From: a virus
Lineage: Duplodnaviria > Heunggongvirae > Uroviricota > Caudoviricetes
IMG/VR virus record: IMGVR_UViG_2802429226_000008
Coordinates: 1-41,124 of that record
DNA length: 41,124 nt
Reading direction: 5' to 3' (one strand)
Shown: positions 1 through 9,831 of the stretch, in pieces
Numbering within the stretch: position 1 is the first letter of the stretch
How the letters are laid out: each line of letters opens with the position of its first letter
The notes under the pieces: model-generated
Database searches by the model: none
Seen by the model: the letters and a program-made list of their open reading frames with translations, nothing else
What the model was told of the DNA's origin: nothing
Position numbers and translations under genes: made by a program

Positions 1-1254
1 ATGCTGGAACAAATGGGCATTGCTGCGAAGCAAGCCTCGTATAAATTAGCGCAACTCTCCAGCCGCGAAAAAAATCGCGTGCTGGAAAAGATCGCTGATG
101 AGCTGGAAGCACAGAGCGAAAGCATCCTCGATGCTAACGCCCAGGATGTTGCTGACGCGCGTGCCAATGGCCTTAGCGAAGCGATGCTTGACCGTCTGGC
201 GTTAACGCCCGCGCGCCTGAAAGGCATTGCCGACGATGTGCGGCAGGTGTGTAATCTTGCCGATCCGGTAGGGCAGGTGATTGATGGAGGTGTGCTGGAC
301 AGCGGCCTGCGTCTGGAGCGTCGCCGCGTGCCGCTGGGTGTTATAGGTGTAATTTATGAAGCGCGTCCGAACGTGACAGTTGATGTCGCTTCGCTGTGTC
401 TGAAAACTGGTAACGCGGTGATCCTGCGCGGCGGCAAAGAAACCTGTCGCACTAACGCTGCAACGGTAGCGGTGATTCAGGACGCCCTGAAATCCTGCGG
501 TTTACCGGCAGGCGCAGTGCAGGCGATTGATAATCCGGATCGCGCACTGGTGAGTGAAATGCTGCGCATGGATAAATACATCGACATGTTGATCCCGCGT
601 GGTGGTGCTGGTTTGCATAAGCTGTGCCGCGAGCAGTCGACAATTCCGGTGATCACTGGCGGCATTGGCGTCTGCCATATTTACGTTGATGAAAGTGCTG
701 ACATTTCTGCAGCCCTGAAAGTGATCGTCAACGCGAAAACCCAGCGTCCGAGTACCTGCAATACGGTAGAAACGTTGCTGGTGAATAAAAACATCGCTGA
801 TAACTTCCTGCCTGCGTTAAGCAAGCAAATGGCGGAAAGCGGCGTGACGTTACACGCCGATGCTGCGGCACTGGCGCAGTTGCAGGCAGGATCTGCGAAA
901 GTGGTGGCTGTTAAGGCGGAAGAGTATGACGATGAATTCCTGTCGTTAGATTTGAACGTCAAAATCGTCAGCGATCTTGACGACGCCATCGCCCATATTC
1001 GTGAACACGGGACGCAACACTCCGATGCGATCCTGACGCGTGATATGCGCAATGCCCAGCGTTTTGTCAATGAAGTGGACTCCTCTGCTGTTTACGTTAA
1101 CGCGTCTACACGTTTCACCGACGGCGGCCAGTTTGGTCTTGGCGCGGAAGTGGCGGTAAGCACGCAAAAACTCCACGCACGCGGACCAATGGGGCTGGAA
1201 GCGCTGACCACCTACAAGTGGATCGGTATTGGTGATTACACCGTTCGTGCGTAA
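1..1254 (+). CDS. proA: gamma-glutamyl phosphate reductase (proline biosynthesis)
   Basis: 417-aa ORF starting at window position 1; protein matches my recollection of E. coli ProA along its length; proA is the known chromosomal neighbour of thrW. Confidence 0.93.
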
Positions 1255-1369
1255 ATAAAACCGGGTGATGCAAAAGTAGCCATTTGATTCACAAGGCCAT
1301 TGACGCATCGCCCGGTTAGTTTTAACCTTGTCCACCGTGATTCACGTTCGTGAACATGTCCTTTTCAGG

Positions 1370-1445
1370 GCCGATATAGCTCAGTTGGTAGAGCAGCGCA
1401 TTCGTAATGCGAAGGTCGTAGGTTCGACTCCTATTATCGGCACCA
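1370..1445 (+). tRNA. thrW: tRNA-Thr (anticodon CGU)
   Basis: 76-nt sequence GCCGATATAGCTCAGTTGGTAGAGC...GGTTCGACTCCTATTATCGGCACCA with anticodon loop cTTCGTAAt and 3' CCA; cloverleaf-compatible. Confidence 0.93.
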
Positions 1446-1459
1446 TTTAAATCAATAAG

Positions 1460-2623
1460 TTACACATCATTAGTACTTTCCTTATTTTTTGACTGGGACA
1501 AATTTGGGACCGATGGGTTCAGGATCGAGTCTATTTGCCGTGCGTGTTCGGTAAGGTGATTAGGTGCAAGGTGAGCATATCGACGAACCATTTCGATAGA
1601 CTCCCAGCCTCCCATTTCCTGTAACACTGACAACGGGACTCCGGCTTGAACCAGCCAACTTGCCCAGGTGTGTCTCAAGTCGTGAAATCTGAAATCATCA
1701 ATACCAGCCCGTCTCAGCGCCGCTTTCCAGGCTGTGTTTGCGTCATACCGCATCTTCCTTACTGTTGGCGCTTTCGTTCCGTCTGGTTTGGTACAGCTTT
1801 CCTTGTACACAAATACCCAACGGTGATGATTCCCGATTTGTTTTTTCAAAACGCGACATGCAGTATCATTCAGCGCAACGCCAATTGCGCGGTTTGATTT
1901 ACTCTCTTCCGGGTTTATCCATGCCACCCGGCGCTGCATGTCTATTTGTTGCCATTCAAGGTTGATGATGTTCGAGCGTCTTAAGCCTGTTGCCAGTGCA
2001 AATTCAACAACAGACTTTAATGGCTCCGGACATTCATCAATCAGCCTTTGTGCTTCATGGGGCTCCAGCCAGCGGATCCGTTTATTCTTTGGTTGAGGCA
2101 CTTTAATAATTGGTGCCTTATCCAGCATTTTCCATTCACGCTCTGCGGCTCTTAGTAGGGCCTTTATAAATGAAAGATGCGTAGCCTTCGTTGCAACGGA
2201 CGCTGGTTTTGGCGTGTATTCTGGAACAGGTTTCCCTTTTTTTCTGCATGCTTCTGCCCTGAGTCTCCAGTTTTCCTCATGACGCCGGTTCGTCATTTTC
2301 TGCATTGCTGAATAAATTTTTGATTCAGTAATGTCTCTTAGTTGCATTCCTGCGAAATGTTGAAGCCAGAATCCGATCCGGCTTTTGTCATCGTCCAGTG
2401 ATTTTTTATGTGCTTTCTCTTCAAGCCACCTGACACACGCTTCCTCGAACGTTATATCAGGTATTTCACCAAGTTTGCTGACCCGCCATGCTTCAGCCTT
2501 TAGCTTGTCATGGAGTTCTGTCGCCTGCCTTTTGTCCTTTGTTCCAAGAGACTGTTTAAATCTTTTACCGTTCGGCAATGTGAAACTGGCGTACCATATT
2601 TCACCTCTGCGGAAGAGTGACAT
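1460..2623 (-). CDS. int: phage integrase (tyrosine recombinase)
   Basis: 387 aa; C-terminal [10 protein letters not shown] and VRRYAHL tyrosine-recombinase motifs; ATG at 2623 with GAGGA SD; abuts tRNA. Confidence 0.93.
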
Positions 2624-6493: not shown

Positions 6494-7168
6494 TTAGGCT
6501 TTGATTTTGTATCTTCTTGGTTTTCCTGAGAAAATCACTGTACCAATTATAGAGCAATTACCGTTGATCTTAATGTAAGGCTCAGGCCAGTTTGGGTTTA
6601 ACGCTTTGAGATAACGCTGTGTCCCATCTTCTATCAACCTTTTGAAGGTGGTTTCGCCTGTATCGTGCATCAATGCAATAACGTCGTCACCGTGGCAGGC
6701 AGGTACTTCAGGATCGACAAAAATCATGTCTCCCGGGCGGTACTCATCAATCATTGAATCACCTATCACCCGCAAGATATAAGTCATTTCCCCACAGGGT
6801 ACAGGGCAGGGATACGTTTCTGCTGTGCTCAAATCAACCTCAGAATATCCAACTTCTTTCCATGCTCCGGCCTGTACCCATGATATGACAGGGACTAATG
6901 TGATTTGTTTATTAGTGATTGAAACATCAGGTTTTTTTGTGATGTTCGTTGTCTGGTGTTCTTGATCGAGCCATCCGACAGGCAGGTCGAAACATTTTTC
7001 GATGTGTCGTGCCATGCTGTCACCGATATTTTTAGTAGCACCATCTCCCATAAACCTGCTGGTCTGGGTTGGCTCGCGATCAATCATAGTGGCAAAGGAA
7101 GAATTCCCGCCAACACCATCTCTCAGTTTTCTGGCGTTAGACCGCCGGATGTCATGGATTGTTTTCAT
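6494..7168 (-). CDS. cI: CI-type prophage repressor (HTH-XRE N-domain, S24 LexA-like peptidase C-domain)
   Basis: 224 aa; C-terminal VIGDSM serine motif; no SD before ATG (leaderless-like); divergent from cro. Confidence 0.88.
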   Translation of the reverse strand: MKTIHDIRRSNARKLRDGVGGNSSFATMIDREPTQTSRFMGDGATKNIGDSMARHIEKCFDLPVGWLDQEHQTTNITKKPDVSITNKQITLVPVISWVQAGAWKEVGYSEVDLSTAETYPCPVPCGEMTYILRVIGDSMIDEYRPGDMIFVDPEVPACHGDDVIALMHDTGETTFKRLIEDGTQRYLKALNPNWPEPYIKINGNCSIIGTVIFSGKPRRYKIKA

Positions 7169-7490: not shown

Positions 7491-8054
7491 ATGAGGCTAA
7501 CCGTGGGTAAGCATCACTGGAAAATAGAAAAACAGCCTGAGTGGTACGTGAAAGCTGTCAGAAAAACTATCGCAAAGTTGCCGGGTGGTTACGCTGAAGC
7601 AGCTGACTGGCTGGATGTAACAGAGAACGCATTATTTAACCGCCTTCGTGCCGATGGCGATCAGATTTTCCCGCTGGGATGGGCAATGATTTTGCAACGT
7701 GCTGGTGGAACTCACTTCATTGCTGACGCAGTGGCGCAGTCTGCAAATGGCGTCTTTGTGTCTCTTCCTGACGTCGAGGATGTGGACAACGCCGATATTA
7801 ACCAGCGCCTGCTGGAAGTCATTGAACAGATCGGCAGTTATTCAAAACAGATTCGTTCAGCAATTGAAGACGGTGTAGTGGAACCGCATGAGAAGACAGC
7901 AATTAACGACGAGCTGTACCTCTCAATTTCGAAGCTGCAGGAGCATGCAGCACTGGTCTACAAAATTTTTTGCATTTCAGAAAGTAATGACGCCCGCGAG
8001 TGTGCAGCTCCGGGCGCCGTGGCGTGTCGTGACTGTGGAGAAACTAACGCATGA
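7491..8054 (+). CDS. putative early regulatory protein (CII/YdaT-position; function uncertain)
   Basis: 187-aa ORF immediately after cro. Confidence 0.5.
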
Positions 8055-8389
8055 ACAGTTTAACAACACACTACCGTCGCTCGCAACTGATTGCGCTTCC
8101 TGTACCGGGTGGAAAAGCGAAGGTGGAGTATTGCTATGCAGTAAATGTACCAGGTGACAGGGAAATTGTAACCCACAGCTTTGCAGAGTGGGCTGTGGGT
8201 GATTTCAACCGGCAGAAGGAGACAGTCCTTTGCGACAAGTTAACCGCTGGTTCAAAGATCACTACGGAGTGCCCGTCAGAGTCATTCGTTGGGAGCCGGA
8301 AACACAACGTGTTATCTACCTCCGCGAAGGCTATGAGCATGAGTGCTTCAGCCCGCTCGAACAGTTTCGTCGTAAATTCAGGGAAATAG
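8051..8389 (+). CDS. hypothetical protein; 3' half probably read in wrong frame (see finding)
   Basis: 112-aa track ORF; C-terminal third is Ser-rich junk-like while alternate frame 8203..8409 reads protein-like. Confidence 0.35.
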
Positions 8390-8398
8390 AGGTCGGTC

Positions 8399-9340
8399 AT
8401 GAGCACTAAATTAACCGGCTATGTATGGGATGGTTGCGCTGCATCAGGCATGAAATTATCCAGCGTGGCAATTATGGCCCGCCTGGCTGATTTCAGTAAT
8501 GACGAAGGTGTGTGCTGGCCATCAATTGAAACCATTGCCCGCCAGATTGGCGCGGGGATGAGTACCGTCAGAACGGCTATCGCACGGCTGGAAGCAGAAG
8601 GCTGGTTAACGCGTAAGGCGCGTCGCCAGGGTAACCGCAATGCGTCGAATGTTTATCAGCTTAACGTTGCGAAGCTTCAGGCAGCGGCATTTTCTCAACT
8701 GTCAGATTCTGACCCGTCAAAATCTGACGCATCAAAATCTGACCCGTCAAAATTTGATGCGTCGAAATCTGGCAAAAAAGCGGGTTTTCACCCGTCAGAA
8801 TCTGGCGGGGATCCGTCAGTAAAATCAAAACATGATCCGTCAGATAAAAAAACTTCTCGTCCGGACGCTTCGCAACCGGACACGCAGACGGCTGAACAGG
8901 AGTTTTTAACTCGCCATCCTGATGCGGTTGTATTCAGCCCTAAAAAGCGCCAGTGGGGAACGCAGGATGATTTGACCTGCGCACAGTGGCTCTGGAAAAA
9001 AATCATCGCCCTGTACGAGCAGGCCGCCGAATGTGACGGCGAGGTGGTTCGTCCCAAAGAACCGAACTGGACAGCCTGGGCAAACGAAATTCGCCTGATG
9101 TGTGTGCAGGATGGTCGTACTCACAAACAAATCTGCGAGATGTACAGCCGCGTCAGCCGCGATCCGTTCTGGTGCCGTAACGTGCTCAGCCCGTCGAAGC
9201 TGCGGGAAAAATGGGATGAGCTTTCCCTGCGCTTATCGCCGTCCGTCAGCACGTACACAGAAAAACGCGAAGACCCGTACTTCAAAGCCAGTTACGACAA
9301 CGTGGACTACAGCCAGATCCCGGCAGGATTCAGGGGGTGA
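8399..9340 (+). CDS. replication initiation protein (lambda O-like, N-terminal wHTH), contains iteron array
   Basis: 313 aa; N-terminal HTH region; internal DPSKSDASKSDPSKFDASKSG repeat reflecting DNA iterons. Confidence 0.8.
   Translation: MSTKLTGYVWDGCAASGMKLSSVAIMARLADFSNDEGVCWPSIETIARQIGAGMSTVRTAIARLEAEGWLTRKARRQGNRNASNVYQLNVAKLQAAAFSQLSDSDPSKSDASKSDPSKFDASKSGKKAGFHPSESGGDPSVKSKHDPSDKKTSRPDASQPDTQTAEQEFLTRHPDAVVFSPKKRQWGTQDDLTCAQWLWKKIIALYEQAAECDGEVVRPKEPNWTAWANEIRLMCVQDGRTHKQICEMYSRVSRDPFWCRNVLSPSKLREKWDELSLRLSPSVSTYTEKREDPYFKASYDNVDYSQIPAGFRG
8702..8806. repeat. iteron array (putative replication origin), 15-bp periodic direct repeats TCAAAATCTGAC, followed by an AT-rich tract
   Basis: copies at 8702, 8717, 8732, 8747, 8762 and 8795; A-rich segment 8820..8850. 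Confidence 0.7.
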
Positions 9341-9342
9341 TC

Positions 9343-9831
9343 ATGAGTCTTTTGAATGAAGTTCAGAAATTCATTGAAGCCCATCCGGGGTGTACTTCCG
9401 GAGACATTGCGGATGCTTTTGCAGGTTACTCACGGCAGCGCGTTCTGCAGTCAGCAAGCAAGTTACGTCAGAGTGGGCGTGTGGCTCACCGTTGTGAAGG
9501 AGATACACGCAGACATTTCCCACGCCTGACTGAGAGAGCGCAGGAGCCGGAACCACAACCAGTTCGTGAAACCAGACCTGTGCGCAATTTCTATGTCGGC
9601 ACTAACGATCCCCGGGTGATTTTGTGCCTGACCCGCCAGGCGGAAGAATTGGAGTCCAGGGGCTTATACCGTCGTGCTGCAACGGTGTGGATGGCGGCAT
9701 TCCGTGAAAGCCACTCCCAGCCAGAACGAAACAATTTTCTGGCGCGTCGTGAGCAGTGTTTACGGAAAAGCAGCAAGCGCGCTGTATCGGGTGATGAGTG
9801 GTATCTGTCAGGGAATTACGTGGGGGCTTAA
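9343..9831 (+). CDS. hypothetical phage protein (possible winged-helix N-terminus)
   Basis: ATG at 9343 (track start 9337 is GTG); TAATG overlap with next gene. Confidence 0.55.
   Translation: MSLLNEVQKFIEAHPGCTSGDIADAFAGYSRQRVLQSASKLRQSGRVAHRCEGDTRRHFPRLTERAQEPEPQPVRETRPVRNFYVGTNDPRVILCLTRQAEELESRGLYRRAATVWMAAFRESHSQPERNNFLARREQCLRKSSKRAVSGDEWYLSGNYVGA

What the first reader, a model, noticed from the sequence alone, without database searches (positions are those of the whole stretch)
8203..8409. Protein-like reading frame hidden behind the annotated ORF: frameshifted gene or small TTG-initiated gene
Seen: track ORF 8051..8389 ends in Ser-rich, junk-like sequence (...[24 protein letters not shown]). 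The -1 frame over 8203..8409 instead reads a well-composed peptide (..[58 protein letters not shown]) and ends at TAA 8407..8409, overlapping the start of the replication gene (ATG 8399) in typical coupled fashion. It has no ATG; a TTG at 8230 is preceded by AAGGAG (8216..8221). Inference: either a small gene with non-ATG start missed by ORF callers, or the upstream gene (8051..) carries a -1 frameshift (sequencing error, pseudogenisation or programmed) near 8203..8230.
Basis: seen in the sequence. Interest (0 to 1): 0.45.

Follow-up and report, generated by a model that had tools for sequence, protein, structure and literature searches.

The report
DUF4222 gene nested inside ymfM
The "hidden" frame is a real small phage gene (DUF4222 family, TTG start) lying almost entirely inside the second half of the cell-division-inhibitor gene ymfM in another frame; selection keeps both frames open, so the published ymfM phenotype cannot yet be assigned to one product.

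Summary
The alternate frame 8230..8409 is a bona fide DUF4222 (PF13973) gene: 67 bits against a cut-off of 27. Its TTG aligns with ATG or GTG starts in relatives, and an AAGGAG sits 8 nt upstream. RefSeq/PGAP already annotates it (WP_001250269.1). Phage records and E. coli K-12 annotate only the 112-aa ORF ymfM.

The frameshift or pseudogene reading is not supported. There is no conserved slippery site, and in-frame fusions in databases are sporadic with different junctions. In distant phages the two modules are separate genes.

The unexpected result concerns the "junk-like" ymfM tail, which is not a chance read-through. In 104 unique loci the ymfM-frame ORF stays open across DUF4222. Among 42 thinned lineages there are 0 stops against 77 expected, while control frames match expectation. 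Yet the tail's amino-acid sequence drifts freely and is predicted disordered. The long ORF nearly always stops within about 11 nt of the replication-gene start.

Best reading: two truly overlapping genes. ORF continuity, not tail sequence, is selected, probably to relay ribosomes to the replication gene.

Consequence: the ymfM (SfiC) filamentation experiments used constructs that contain both genes.

The parts
8051..8389 (+). Long ORF ymfM (112 aa): a conserved N-module followed by a Ser/Thr/Ala-rich tail. 97% identical to K-12 e14 YmfM (b1148, 'cell division inhibitor YmfM').
   Evidence: phrog_1170 match over 1-112. No Pfam or NCBIfam hit.
8051..8054 (+). ATGA overlap: the ymfM start codon overlaps the stop of the CII-like gene ymfL (7491..8054), a translational-coupling geometry. 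GGAG lies upstream.
   Evidence: upstream sequence ctgtGGAGaaactaacgcATG.
8051..8221 (+). N-module of YmfM (about aa 1-57), the protein-level conserved part. It occurs as a stand-alone 59-65-aa gene in distant phages.
   Evidence: tblastn gives 59-63% identity in Klebsiella phages. Stand-alone genes: Hafnia yong2 280..459, phiNP 405..602, Providencia 901..1092. AF2 pLDDT 55-74 with three strands and two helices.
8200..8202 (+). TGA stop in the DUF4222 frame, 27 nt upstream of its start. It limits any frameshift-fusion window.
   Evidence: In other loci this stop lies 0-57 nt upstream.
8216..8221 (+). Shine-Dalgarno AAGGAG for the DUF4222 gene, embedded in ymfM codons K56-E57, with an 8-nt spacer to the TTG.
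   Evidence: A GGAG-type motif is present in 80 of 104 unique loci.
8230..8409 (+). DUF4222 gene (59 aa, TTG start), identical to RefSeq WP_001250269.1. Predicted small Tudor/SH3-like beta-barrel.
8230..8389 (+). Dual-coding overlap, 160 nt. DUF4222 codons 1-53 lie one frame back (-1) from ymfM codons 60-112.
   Evidence: In the ymfM frame: 0 stops against 77.3 expected, open in 42 of 42 lineages against 3.9 expected. Control frames match expectation. Tail residues vary freely. Tail AF2 pLDDT 32-37.
8387..8392 (+). ymfM stop TAG (8387..8389) abutting the GAGG (8389..8392) Shine-Dalgarno of the replication gene, with 9 nt between the stop and the ATG.
   Evidence: The stop-to-next-start distance is +9 nt (n=40) or -11 nt (n=44) in 84 of 99 scorable loci.
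8399..9340 (+). Replication-initiator-like gene (HTH_36; named O / primosomal protein in relatives). Its start is overlapped by the DUF4222 stop (8407..8409).
   Evidence: The DUF4222 stop overlaps the next start in nearly all loci: -4 (ATGA) n=47, -11 n=25.

Best explanation
Two genuine genes on the same strand overlap here.

(1) ymfM (8051..8389) starts at an ATG coupled to the ymfL stop. It encodes a conserved N-module of about 57 aa, followed by a tail of about 53 aa.

(2) A DUF4222 gene (8230..8409) initiates independently at TTG 8230, using the AAGGAG embedded in ymfM codons 56-57. It is read one frame back (-1) from ymfM. It makes a 59-aa beta-barrel protein of the RgdR/DUF4222 family of small prophage regulators.

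Shown: DUF4222 is the frame under protein-level selection in the overlap. The ymfM frame there is under selection only against stop codons.

Inferred: what is selected is that ribosomes translating ymfM continue to a stop placed on the Shine-Dalgarno or start of the replication gene. This would be a ribosome relay running ymfL to ymfM to rep. DUF4222 can then sit between ymfM's N-module and rep without breaking translational coupling.

My confidence is about 0.85 that both ORFs are real, overlapping and kept open by selection. It is about 0.45 that coupling to the replication gene is the reason.
For: DUF4222 is real:
- Pfam 67 bits, and 65-75 bits for nested ORFs that are only 38-45% identical to the window's.
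- Amino-acid identity between lineages is 0.60 against 0.35 in the other frame. Nucleotide differences at its codon positions 1/2/3 are 0.28/0.25/0.56.
- Its start codon and SD are conserved. AF2 pLDDT is 84.

The N-module is real: it is conserved down to 38-41% identity and stands alone in Hafnia, Providencia and phiNP phages.

The long ORF is selected:
- In 104 of 104 unique loci chosen only for an open +1 frame upstream, that frame stays open to DUF4222 codon 52 or beyond.
- The null is calibrated: 0 stops against 77.3 expected, whereas the +2 frame has 152 against 160 and the N-only region has 144 against 119 and 145 against 162. The joint P for 15 lineages under 75% nt identity is about 10^-15.5.
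- Val codons before an A-initial codon are GTC 104 and GTT 117, with GTA/GTG 0 of 221. The same context in the N-only part uses GTA/GTG in 100 of 139 cases.

The tail sequence is unconstrained:
- All four bases occur at DUF4222 four-fold sites, and the tail residue varies.
- The three YmfM differences between the window and K-12 all fall in the tail, while DUF4222 is identical.
- Tail pLDDT is 32-37.

Coupling geometry:
- The long-ORF stop lies +9 or -11 nt from the next gene's start in 84 of 99 loci.
- Within the +9 class the DUF4222 stop position varies (-11, -17, -44, -55), while the ymfM stop-to-start spacing is fixed.
- Stand-alone N-module genes also end on the next gene's start.
Against: - There is no expression data. 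Initiation at TTG 8230 and translation of the ymfM tail are inferred from comparative sequence only.
- Coupling to rep could in principle be supplied by DUF4222 alone, since its stop overlaps the rep start. The need for ymfM to read through is therefore not proven.
- In SfV, ST64B and Stx phages the +1 ORF continues 500-800 nt into an Ash-family domain. That fits 'in-frame fusion' rather than termination-reinitiation.
- In YeP2 and PSTCR8lys the +1 frame is open over DUF4222 although no upstream ORF reads in. Part of the openness could therefore be an intrinsic property of the family that I have not identified.
- The lineages are phylogenetically related, so the joint probability is overstated. 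The free C/T toggling at the risk sites argues against simple inertia.
Confidence: 0.7

Rival explanations
1. The tail is a functional part of the YmfM protein. It would be an intrinsically disordered Ser/Thr/Ala-rich C-terminal extension whose presence, length or composition matters (for stability, localisation or action on the division machinery), while its exact sequence does not.
For: Stop codons are purged over the whole tail. Tail length is constant and its composition is similar across lineages: S 21.5%, T 11.7%, A 10.5%. The 112-aa ORF causes filamentation when expressed.
Against: The composition and length follow automatically from the DUF4222 constraints on the other frame. No tail position shows constraint beyond stop avoidance. 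The N-module functions as a stand-alone 59-65-aa gene in other phages, and with unrelated short tails in P0054, P0056 and P0070. The filamentation construct also contains DUF4222.
Confidence: 0.2
2. Only the N-module and DUF4222 are real. The 3' half of ymfM is a meaningless read-through that happens to be open through chance or shared ancestry.
For: The tail looks like junk: it is low-complexity, predicted disordered and poorly conserved. PGAP does not call ymfM at all in most E. coli genomes.
Against: Zero stops against 77 expected with calibrated controls, 42 of 42 lineages open against 3.9 expected, and a joint P of about 10^-15.5 for 15 lineages under 75% nt identity. Synonymous sites at risk positions toggle between C and T but are never A or G.
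Confidence: 0.04
3. A -1 frameshift, either programmed or a sequencing or mutational error, joins the N-module to DUF4222. The real product would be a fusion of about 118 aa.
For: The frame offset between the N-module and DUF4222 is always the same. A few 102-152-aa proteins carrying both the N-module and PF13973 exist in the databases. An A_AAG motif exists at 8252-8255 in the window (my reading of the sequence).
Against: The fusion proteins all have different junctions and tiny cluster sizes, which fits sporadic indels. A DUF4222-frame stop lies just upstream of its start, 0-3 nt away in 14 loci. Slippery heptamers occur in only 5 of 42 lineages at scattered positions, and the A_AAG is not conserved in Klebsiella. 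DUF4222 has its own conserved start codon and SD. The two modules are separate, non-adjacent genes in Hafnia and phiNP phages. The window sequence is 100% identical to many independent complete genomes, so it is not a read error.
Confidence: 0.03
4. The DUF4222 frame is spurious, and ymfM (112 aa) is the only gene.
For: K-12 and many phage annotations list only ymfM.
Against: The Pfam match is strong. DUF4222 genes stand alone elsewhere. The codon-position signature is that of the DUF4222 frame. The family has a characterised member, RgdR.
Confidence: 0.01

Closest known systems
[quoted passage not shown]
   Same: The window's 112-aa ORF is 97% identical to it. The flanking genes are the same: ymfK-like repressor, cro-like gene, ymfL, then a replication gene. 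K-12 carries the identical nested 59-aa DUF4222 ORF with the same AAGGAG-N8-TTG.
   Different: The published work treats ymfM as a single gene. The whole fragment was cloned in pBAD24 and the whole gene deleted. The earlier screen fragments also span all of ymfM. The phenotype is therefore not assigned to a reading frame. In the library searched, the five papers that mention DUF4222 do not appear among the listed ymfM papers.
RgdR (ECs1581) of EHEC O157:H7 prophage CP-933C, a DUF4222-domain regulator (Flockhart et al. 2012, PMC3378721; review PMC10877973)
   Same: Both are small prophage-encoded proteins with a DUF4222 domain. RgdR was also left unannotated in one reference genome, EDL933.
   Different: RgdR is 99 aa, lies on a P4-like element, and has an RGD motif important for activity. 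The window protein is 59 aa, has no RGD tripeptide, and sits in a lambdoid early-right operon. I did not have the RgdR sequence to align. Its functions (LEE1/ler activation, motility repression, non-specific DNA binding) cannot be transferred without a test.
Embedded same-strand gene pairs of phages, e.g. lambda Rz/Rz1 (Rz1 lies in the +1 frame inside Rz); recalled from general knowledge, not tested here
   Same: A small gene with its own start and SD lies inside a larger ORF on the same strand in another frame, and both are conserved.
   Different: In Rz/Rz1 both products are sequence-constrained and act together. Here one frame (the ymfM tail) shows only stop avoidance. The inner gene also extends 20 nt beyond the outer stop in the window; it is fully embedded in the L012 class. 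There is no evidence that the two products interact.
Translationally coupled gene chains (termination-reinitiation at ATGA or short-spacer junctions) in phage early operons; established general mechanism
   Same: ymfL and ymfM are joined by ATGA. The ymfM stop lies 9 nt before the rep ATG, on its SD. The DUF4222 stop overlaps the rep start, and the rep stop overlaps the next gene's GTG.
   Different: Here the relay ORF would have to traverse a complete second gene in another frame to reach the coupling site. I have not seen that described, and it is inferred, not shown.

Membership tests
Pfam PF13973 (DUF4222) | HMM score above the curated gathering threshold over most of the 53-position profile | tested here: met
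   67.3 bits against a cut-off of 27, profile positions 3-52 of 53, E = 8.6e-19. Diverged nested homologues score 65-75 bits.
Pfam PF13973 (DUF4222) | Small stand-alone protein encoded in prophages or phages of Proteobacteria | tested here: met
   59 aa. More than 130 homologues of 50-86 aa are named DUF4222 by NCBI. 111 phage records hold a match.
RgdR family (functional sense, Flockhart 2012) | RGD tripeptide, reported as important for activity | tested here: not met
   The 59-aa sequence contains no RGD. The requirement is described.
RgdR family (functional sense, Flockhart 2012) | Activates LEE1/ler and type III secretion; represses motility | not testable with these tools
   This needs genetics and reporter assays.
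YmfM (e14 b1148) | Full-length sequence identity and conserved position between ymfL and the replication gene | tested here: met
   109 of 112 residues identical to K-12 YmfM. Synteny is shown.
YmfM (e14 b1148) | Inhibits Z-ring formation and causes filamentation when expressed | not testable with these tools
   Reported for the K-12 fragment. That fragment also carries the SD, the TTG and 53 of 59 codons of DUF4222.
Embedded / overprinted same-strand gene pair | Inner gene with its own conserved initiation signals inside an outer ORF in a different frame | tested here: met
   Start codon conserved as ATG, GTG or TTG in 104 of 104 loci. SD present in 80 of 104. The frame offset is identical wherever the N-module is adjacent. 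In the window 160 of 180 nt are inside ymfM.
Embedded / overprinted same-strand gene pair | Both frames maintained by selection | tested here: met
   The DUF4222 frame shows a protein-level signature. The ymfM frame has 0 stops against 77.3 expected, with calibrated controls.
Embedded / overprinted same-strand gene pair | Both products expressed | not testable with these tools
   No ribosome-profiling or proteomic data are available here.
Programmed -1 ribosomal frameshift | Conserved slippery heptamer X_XXY_YYZ in the upstream frame at the junction | tested here: not met
   Found in 5 of 42 lineages, with different motifs and positions.
Programmed -1 ribosomal frameshift | Downstream frame lacks its own initiation signals and is open back to the shift site | tested here: not met
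   Its own start codon and SD are conserved. An in-frame stop lies 0-57 nt upstream of the start in most loci.

The most novel reading that the evidence does not exclude
The SfiC/YmfM division-inhibition phenotype of e14 is caused wholly or partly by the unannotated nested DUF4222 protein. That protein is a Tudor-like small beta-barrel that may bind RNA polymerase, like the UvrD-CTD, CarD and Mfd-RID domains it resembles. Under this reading the ymfM tail exists only as a 'ribosome relay': a reading frame kept stop-free, with no constraint on its peptide, so that translation is handed from ymfL through ymfM to the replication gene across an entire second gene.
Probability: 0.2. Interest if true: 0.7.

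Novelty: new member of a known kind. Interest (0 to 1): 0.5.

Why it matters
1. E. coli K-12, the reference genome, lacks an annotation for a conserved and evidently selected 59-aa gene inside b1148 (ymfM).

2. The assignment of the 35-year-old SfiC phenotype to "YmfM" rests on constructs and deletions that contain both genes. It needs frame-specific mutants, which are easy to make (C8236T, T8241A, T8230C).

3. The locus is a clean natural example of a dual-coding region in which one frame is selected only for being open. That is useful for calibrating overlapping-gene detectors and for studying translational coupling across an embedded gene.

4. Annotation pipelines disagree three ways on this 360-bp stretch: ymfM, DUF4222, or an antisense ORF. 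The disagreement is propagated across thousands of genomes.

Tried and rejected
- **phrog_20047.** I took this 63-aa family as a hint that natural variants truncate YmfM just after the N-module by a DUF4222-synonymous stop. The 63-aa database proteins are instead frameshifts into the third frame (...[14 protein letters not shown]), so they are uninformative.
- **Database fusions.** I considered the in-frame N-module+DUF4222 proteins (P0030, P0052, P0059, P0065, P0090) as evidence for a fusion product. I rejected this because each has a different junction.
- **Locus retrieval.** The search for related loci with the full 15-sequence alignment failed because no stretch was conserved enough. It worked after splitting the alignment into two subgroups.
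- **NCBIfam.** It gave nothing for either product. PADLOC was not run.
- **Published overexpression screens.** The fragments span all of ymfM, so they do not resolve which frame causes filamentation.
- **N-module fold.** I did not run a fold search on the N-module model because its confidence is too low (pLDDT 53).

Full report
**Context.** The window is a lambdoid prophage of the e14/SfII/SfIV type. The region reads: LexA-like repressor (6494..7168, minus strand), a cro-like gene, the CII-like gene ymfL (7491..8054, PF06892), the 112-aa ORF 8051..8389, a replication-initiator-like gene (8399..9340, HTH_36), and a PerC-like gene. The 701 bp around the finding are 100% identical to many complete E. 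coli chromosomes and 98-99% identical to phages SfIV, SfII and others. The sequence is therefore not a read error.

**Observation.**
- ORF 8051..8389 has a Ser-rich tail.
- The frame one base back is open from 8203 (after TGA 8200..8202) to TAA 8407..8409.
- Its only start codon is TTG 8230, with AAGGAG at 8216..8221.
- Its stop overlaps the replication-gene ATG at 8399.

**What the alternate frame is.** The 59-aa translation is a near-full-length match to Pfam DUF4222 (PF13973; 67.3 bits, cut-off 27). NCBI PGAP annotates exactly these coordinates as a 'DUF4222 domain-containing protein', WP_001250269.1, and leaves 8055..8229 empty. Phage GenBank records (SfIV, vB_EcoM-720R4) and K-12 RefSeq annotate only the 112-aa ORF as a hypothetical protein or YmfM. 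One phage record annotates an antisense ORF instead. More than 130 database proteins of 50-86 aa from many Enterobacterales are named DUF4222.

The family has one characterised member, RgdR (ECs1581) of EHEC. It is a 99-aa prophage regulator that activates LEE1/ler, represses motility and binds DNA non-specifically. The window protein lacks RgdR's RGD motif.

**The start codon.** In Klebsiella, Pantoea and many other relatives the residue aligned with TTG 8230 is ATG or GTG. Across 104 unique loci the start is ATG in 47, GTG in 54 and TTG in 3. A GGAG-type SD lies 4-18 nt upstream in 80 of them.

**The upstream ORF is not junk and not frameshifted.** The first roughly 57 residues of ORF 8051..8389 (the N-module) are conserved as protein: 59-63% identity in Klebsiella phages, and down to 38-41% in Hafnia and Providencia phages. 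In distant phages the N-module is a stand-alone gene:
- Hafnia yong2: 280..459, 59 aa.
- phiNP: 405..602, 65 aa.
- Providencia PSTRCR_117lys: 901..1092, 63 aa.

In Hafnia and phiNP, DUF4222 sits about 700-850 nt away, behind another gene. So the N-module and DUF4222 are separate genes, not halves of one.

Database proteins that join them in frame (P0030, P0052, P0059, P0065, P0090) each have a different junction and tiny cluster sizes. The DUF4222 frame has a stop 0-57 nt upstream of its start in most loci. X_XXY_YYZ heptamers occur in 5 of 42 lineages at scattered positions. A programmed or accidental -1 frameshift is therefore not supported.

**The unexpected part: the long ORF is kept open.** I collected 137 loci with a DUF4222 ORF from phage records, genomes of 38 species, IMG/VR and Logan contigs. 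They hold 111 unique DUF4222 nucleotide sequences.

In 104 of them an ORF in the +1 frame relative to DUF4222 (the ymfM frame) begins at least 150 nt upstream. In all 104 that ORF continues without a stop to DUF4222 codon 52 or beyond, or past its stop. The +2 frame carries 1-12 stops.

I resampled synonymous codons of each DUF4222 protein using the window's own codon usage. Among 42 lineages thinned to under 88% nucleotide identity:
- The +1 frame over codons 2-51 has 0 stops against 77.3 expected, and is open in 42 of 42 against 3.9 expected.
- The same null predicts the controls well. DUF4222 +2 frame: 152 observed, 159.7 expected. N-only region +1: 144 observed, 119 expected. N-only region +2: 145 observed, 162 expected.
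- Fifteen lineages under 75% identity give a joint probability of about 10^-15.5. This is overstated by shared ancestry but is decisive in direction.

At the mechanistic level, Val codons followed by an A-initial codon are GTC (104) or GTT (117) and never GTA or GTG (0 of 221). In the non-overlapped N-module part of the same loci, the same context uses GTA or GTG in 100 of 139 cases. The sites are not frozen: they toggle between C and T.

**The tail's sequence is free.**
- At conserved four-fold-degenerate DUF4222 residues (G17, R10, R36, P49, G40) all four third bases occur, and the ymfM-frame residue varies widely, e.g. A/E/V/G/D.
- Mean pairwise amino-acid identity is 0.60 in the DUF4222 frame and 0.35 in the tail frame.
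- Nucleotide differences at DUF4222 codon positions 1/2/3 are 0.28/0.25/0.56. The tail frame is therefore most variable at its own second position, the opposite of a coding signature.
- The three differences between the window's YmfM and K-12 YmfM all lie in the tail, while the DUF4222 proteins are identical.
- AlphaFold2 predicts residues 68-112 as unstructured (pLDDT 32-37). The N-module is modestly confident (pLDDT 55-74).

Selection thus acts on continuity of the reading frame, not on the peptide it encodes.

**Where the long ORF ends.** In 84 of 99 scorable loci the long-ORF stop lies +9 nt (n=40) or -11 nt (n=44) from the start codon of the next gene. In the +9 class, which includes the window, the DUF4222 stop position varies (-11, -17, -44, -55 relative to that start) while the ymfM stop-to-start spacing is constant. 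In the window the TAG (8387..8389) abuts the GAGG (8389..8392) that serves the ATG at 8399. Upstream, ymfL and ymfM are joined by ATGA. Stand-alone N-module genes in Hafnia, Providencia and phiNP also end on the next gene's start.

This geometry suggests the favoured mechanism. ymfM-frame ribosomes must reach the replication gene's initiation region, forming a coupling relay from ymfL through ymfM to rep. DUF4222 is accommodated in another frame without interrupting it. This step is inference.

Three observations argue for caution:
- DUF4222's own stop also overlaps the rep start.
- In SfV, ST64B and Stx phages the +1 ORF runs on into an Ash-family domain that begins right after DUF4222.
- In YeP2 and PSTCR8lys the +1 frame is open without an upstream read-in ORF.

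**Consequence for the literature.** K-12 e14 carries the identical nested ORF with the same AAGGAG-N8-TTG, but annotates only 'cell division inhibitor YmfM'. The study that assigned the SfiC filamentation phenotype to ymfM cloned the whole ymfM fragment into pBAD24 and deleted the whole gene. A fragment ending at the ymfM stop contains the SD, the TTG and 53 of 59 DUF4222 codons, which covers the whole Pfam domain. The earlier overexpression screens recovered fragments spanning all of ymfM. None of these experiments distinguishes the two products. In the library searched, the five papers that mention DUF4222 are not among the listed ymfM papers.

**Verdict.** The 'small TTG gene' reading is right but already known to RefSeq, and the frameshift reading is wrong. 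The added value is twofold. First, this is a statistically robust, conserved overlapping gene pair in which the ymfM tail is selected only to be open. Second, the functional assignment of ymfM/SfiC is confounded by the nested gene. Same-strand embedded genes are a known kind in phages, lambda Rz/Rz1 being an example (from general knowledge), so this is a new member of a known kind, of moderate interest. It becomes more interesting if the nested protein proves to be the division inhibitor, or if the relay model holds.

Noticed in passing
window 8687-8809: Six 15-nt-spaced direct repeats (TCAAAATCTGACSCR-like) lie inside the replication gene and encode the DPSKSDASKS... stretch. They look like origin iterons embedded in the initiator gene, as in lambda O.
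   Followed up: partly
window 8134-8406 (minus strand); L006 859..1146: A 90-aa antisense ORF covers the same stretch. It is annotated as the CDS here in phage vB_EcoS-733R5, in place of ymfM or DUF4222. This is a third conflicting annotation of the same 360 bp.
   Followed up: no
L018 (SfV) 552..1388; L019 (ST64B); L020; L061: In SfV, ST64B and Stx-type phages, DUF4222 (701..880) is unannotated. It lies in another frame inside the 5' part of an annotated 'transcriptional regulator/antirepressor' ORF, which begins MNSLT... like ymfM. That ORF's Ash domain starts at residue 117, just after the DUF4222 stop. No SD-preceded start lies between them.
   Followed up: partly
L009 (Hafnia yong2) 1280..1465; L010 (phiNP) 1289..1468: There are unannotated bona fide DUF4222 ORFs (65.6 and 75 bits). 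In Hafnia the ORF lies under the 5' end of an 'Ash family protein' CDS in another frame. In phiNP it lies in an 'intergenic' gap between rha and rep. phiNP is the one locus with many +1-frame stops, 7 in all.
   Followed up: partly
L144 (E. coli K-12 MG1655, NC_000913.3 1204001..1204180): The K-12 reference annotation has no gene for the intact 59-aa DUF4222 ORF nested in ymfM (b1148).
   Followed up: yes
L017 1501..1862: The gene range on record for the 113-aa product is 362 nt, which is not a multiple of 3, and it is flagged 'translates to query: no'. It may merge the two overlapping CDSs, but this is unexplained.
   Followed up: no
P0054, P0056, P0070, P0075, P0089: These are mosaic variants. 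Some carry the N-module joined to unrelated short tails; P0054 reads into the alternate frame at the 3' end of the replication gene, which implies a deletion of DUF4222 and rep. Others carry different N-termini reading into the same DUF4222-overlapping tail. The recombination joint seems to sit at ...GDFNRQ.
   Followed up: partly
window 9337-9831: The gene after the replication gene is PerC-family by PGAP and gives a sub-threshold match to ANR-family negative regulators (22.5 bits, cut-off 32). Its GTG start overlaps the rep stop, another coupled junction.
   Followed up: no
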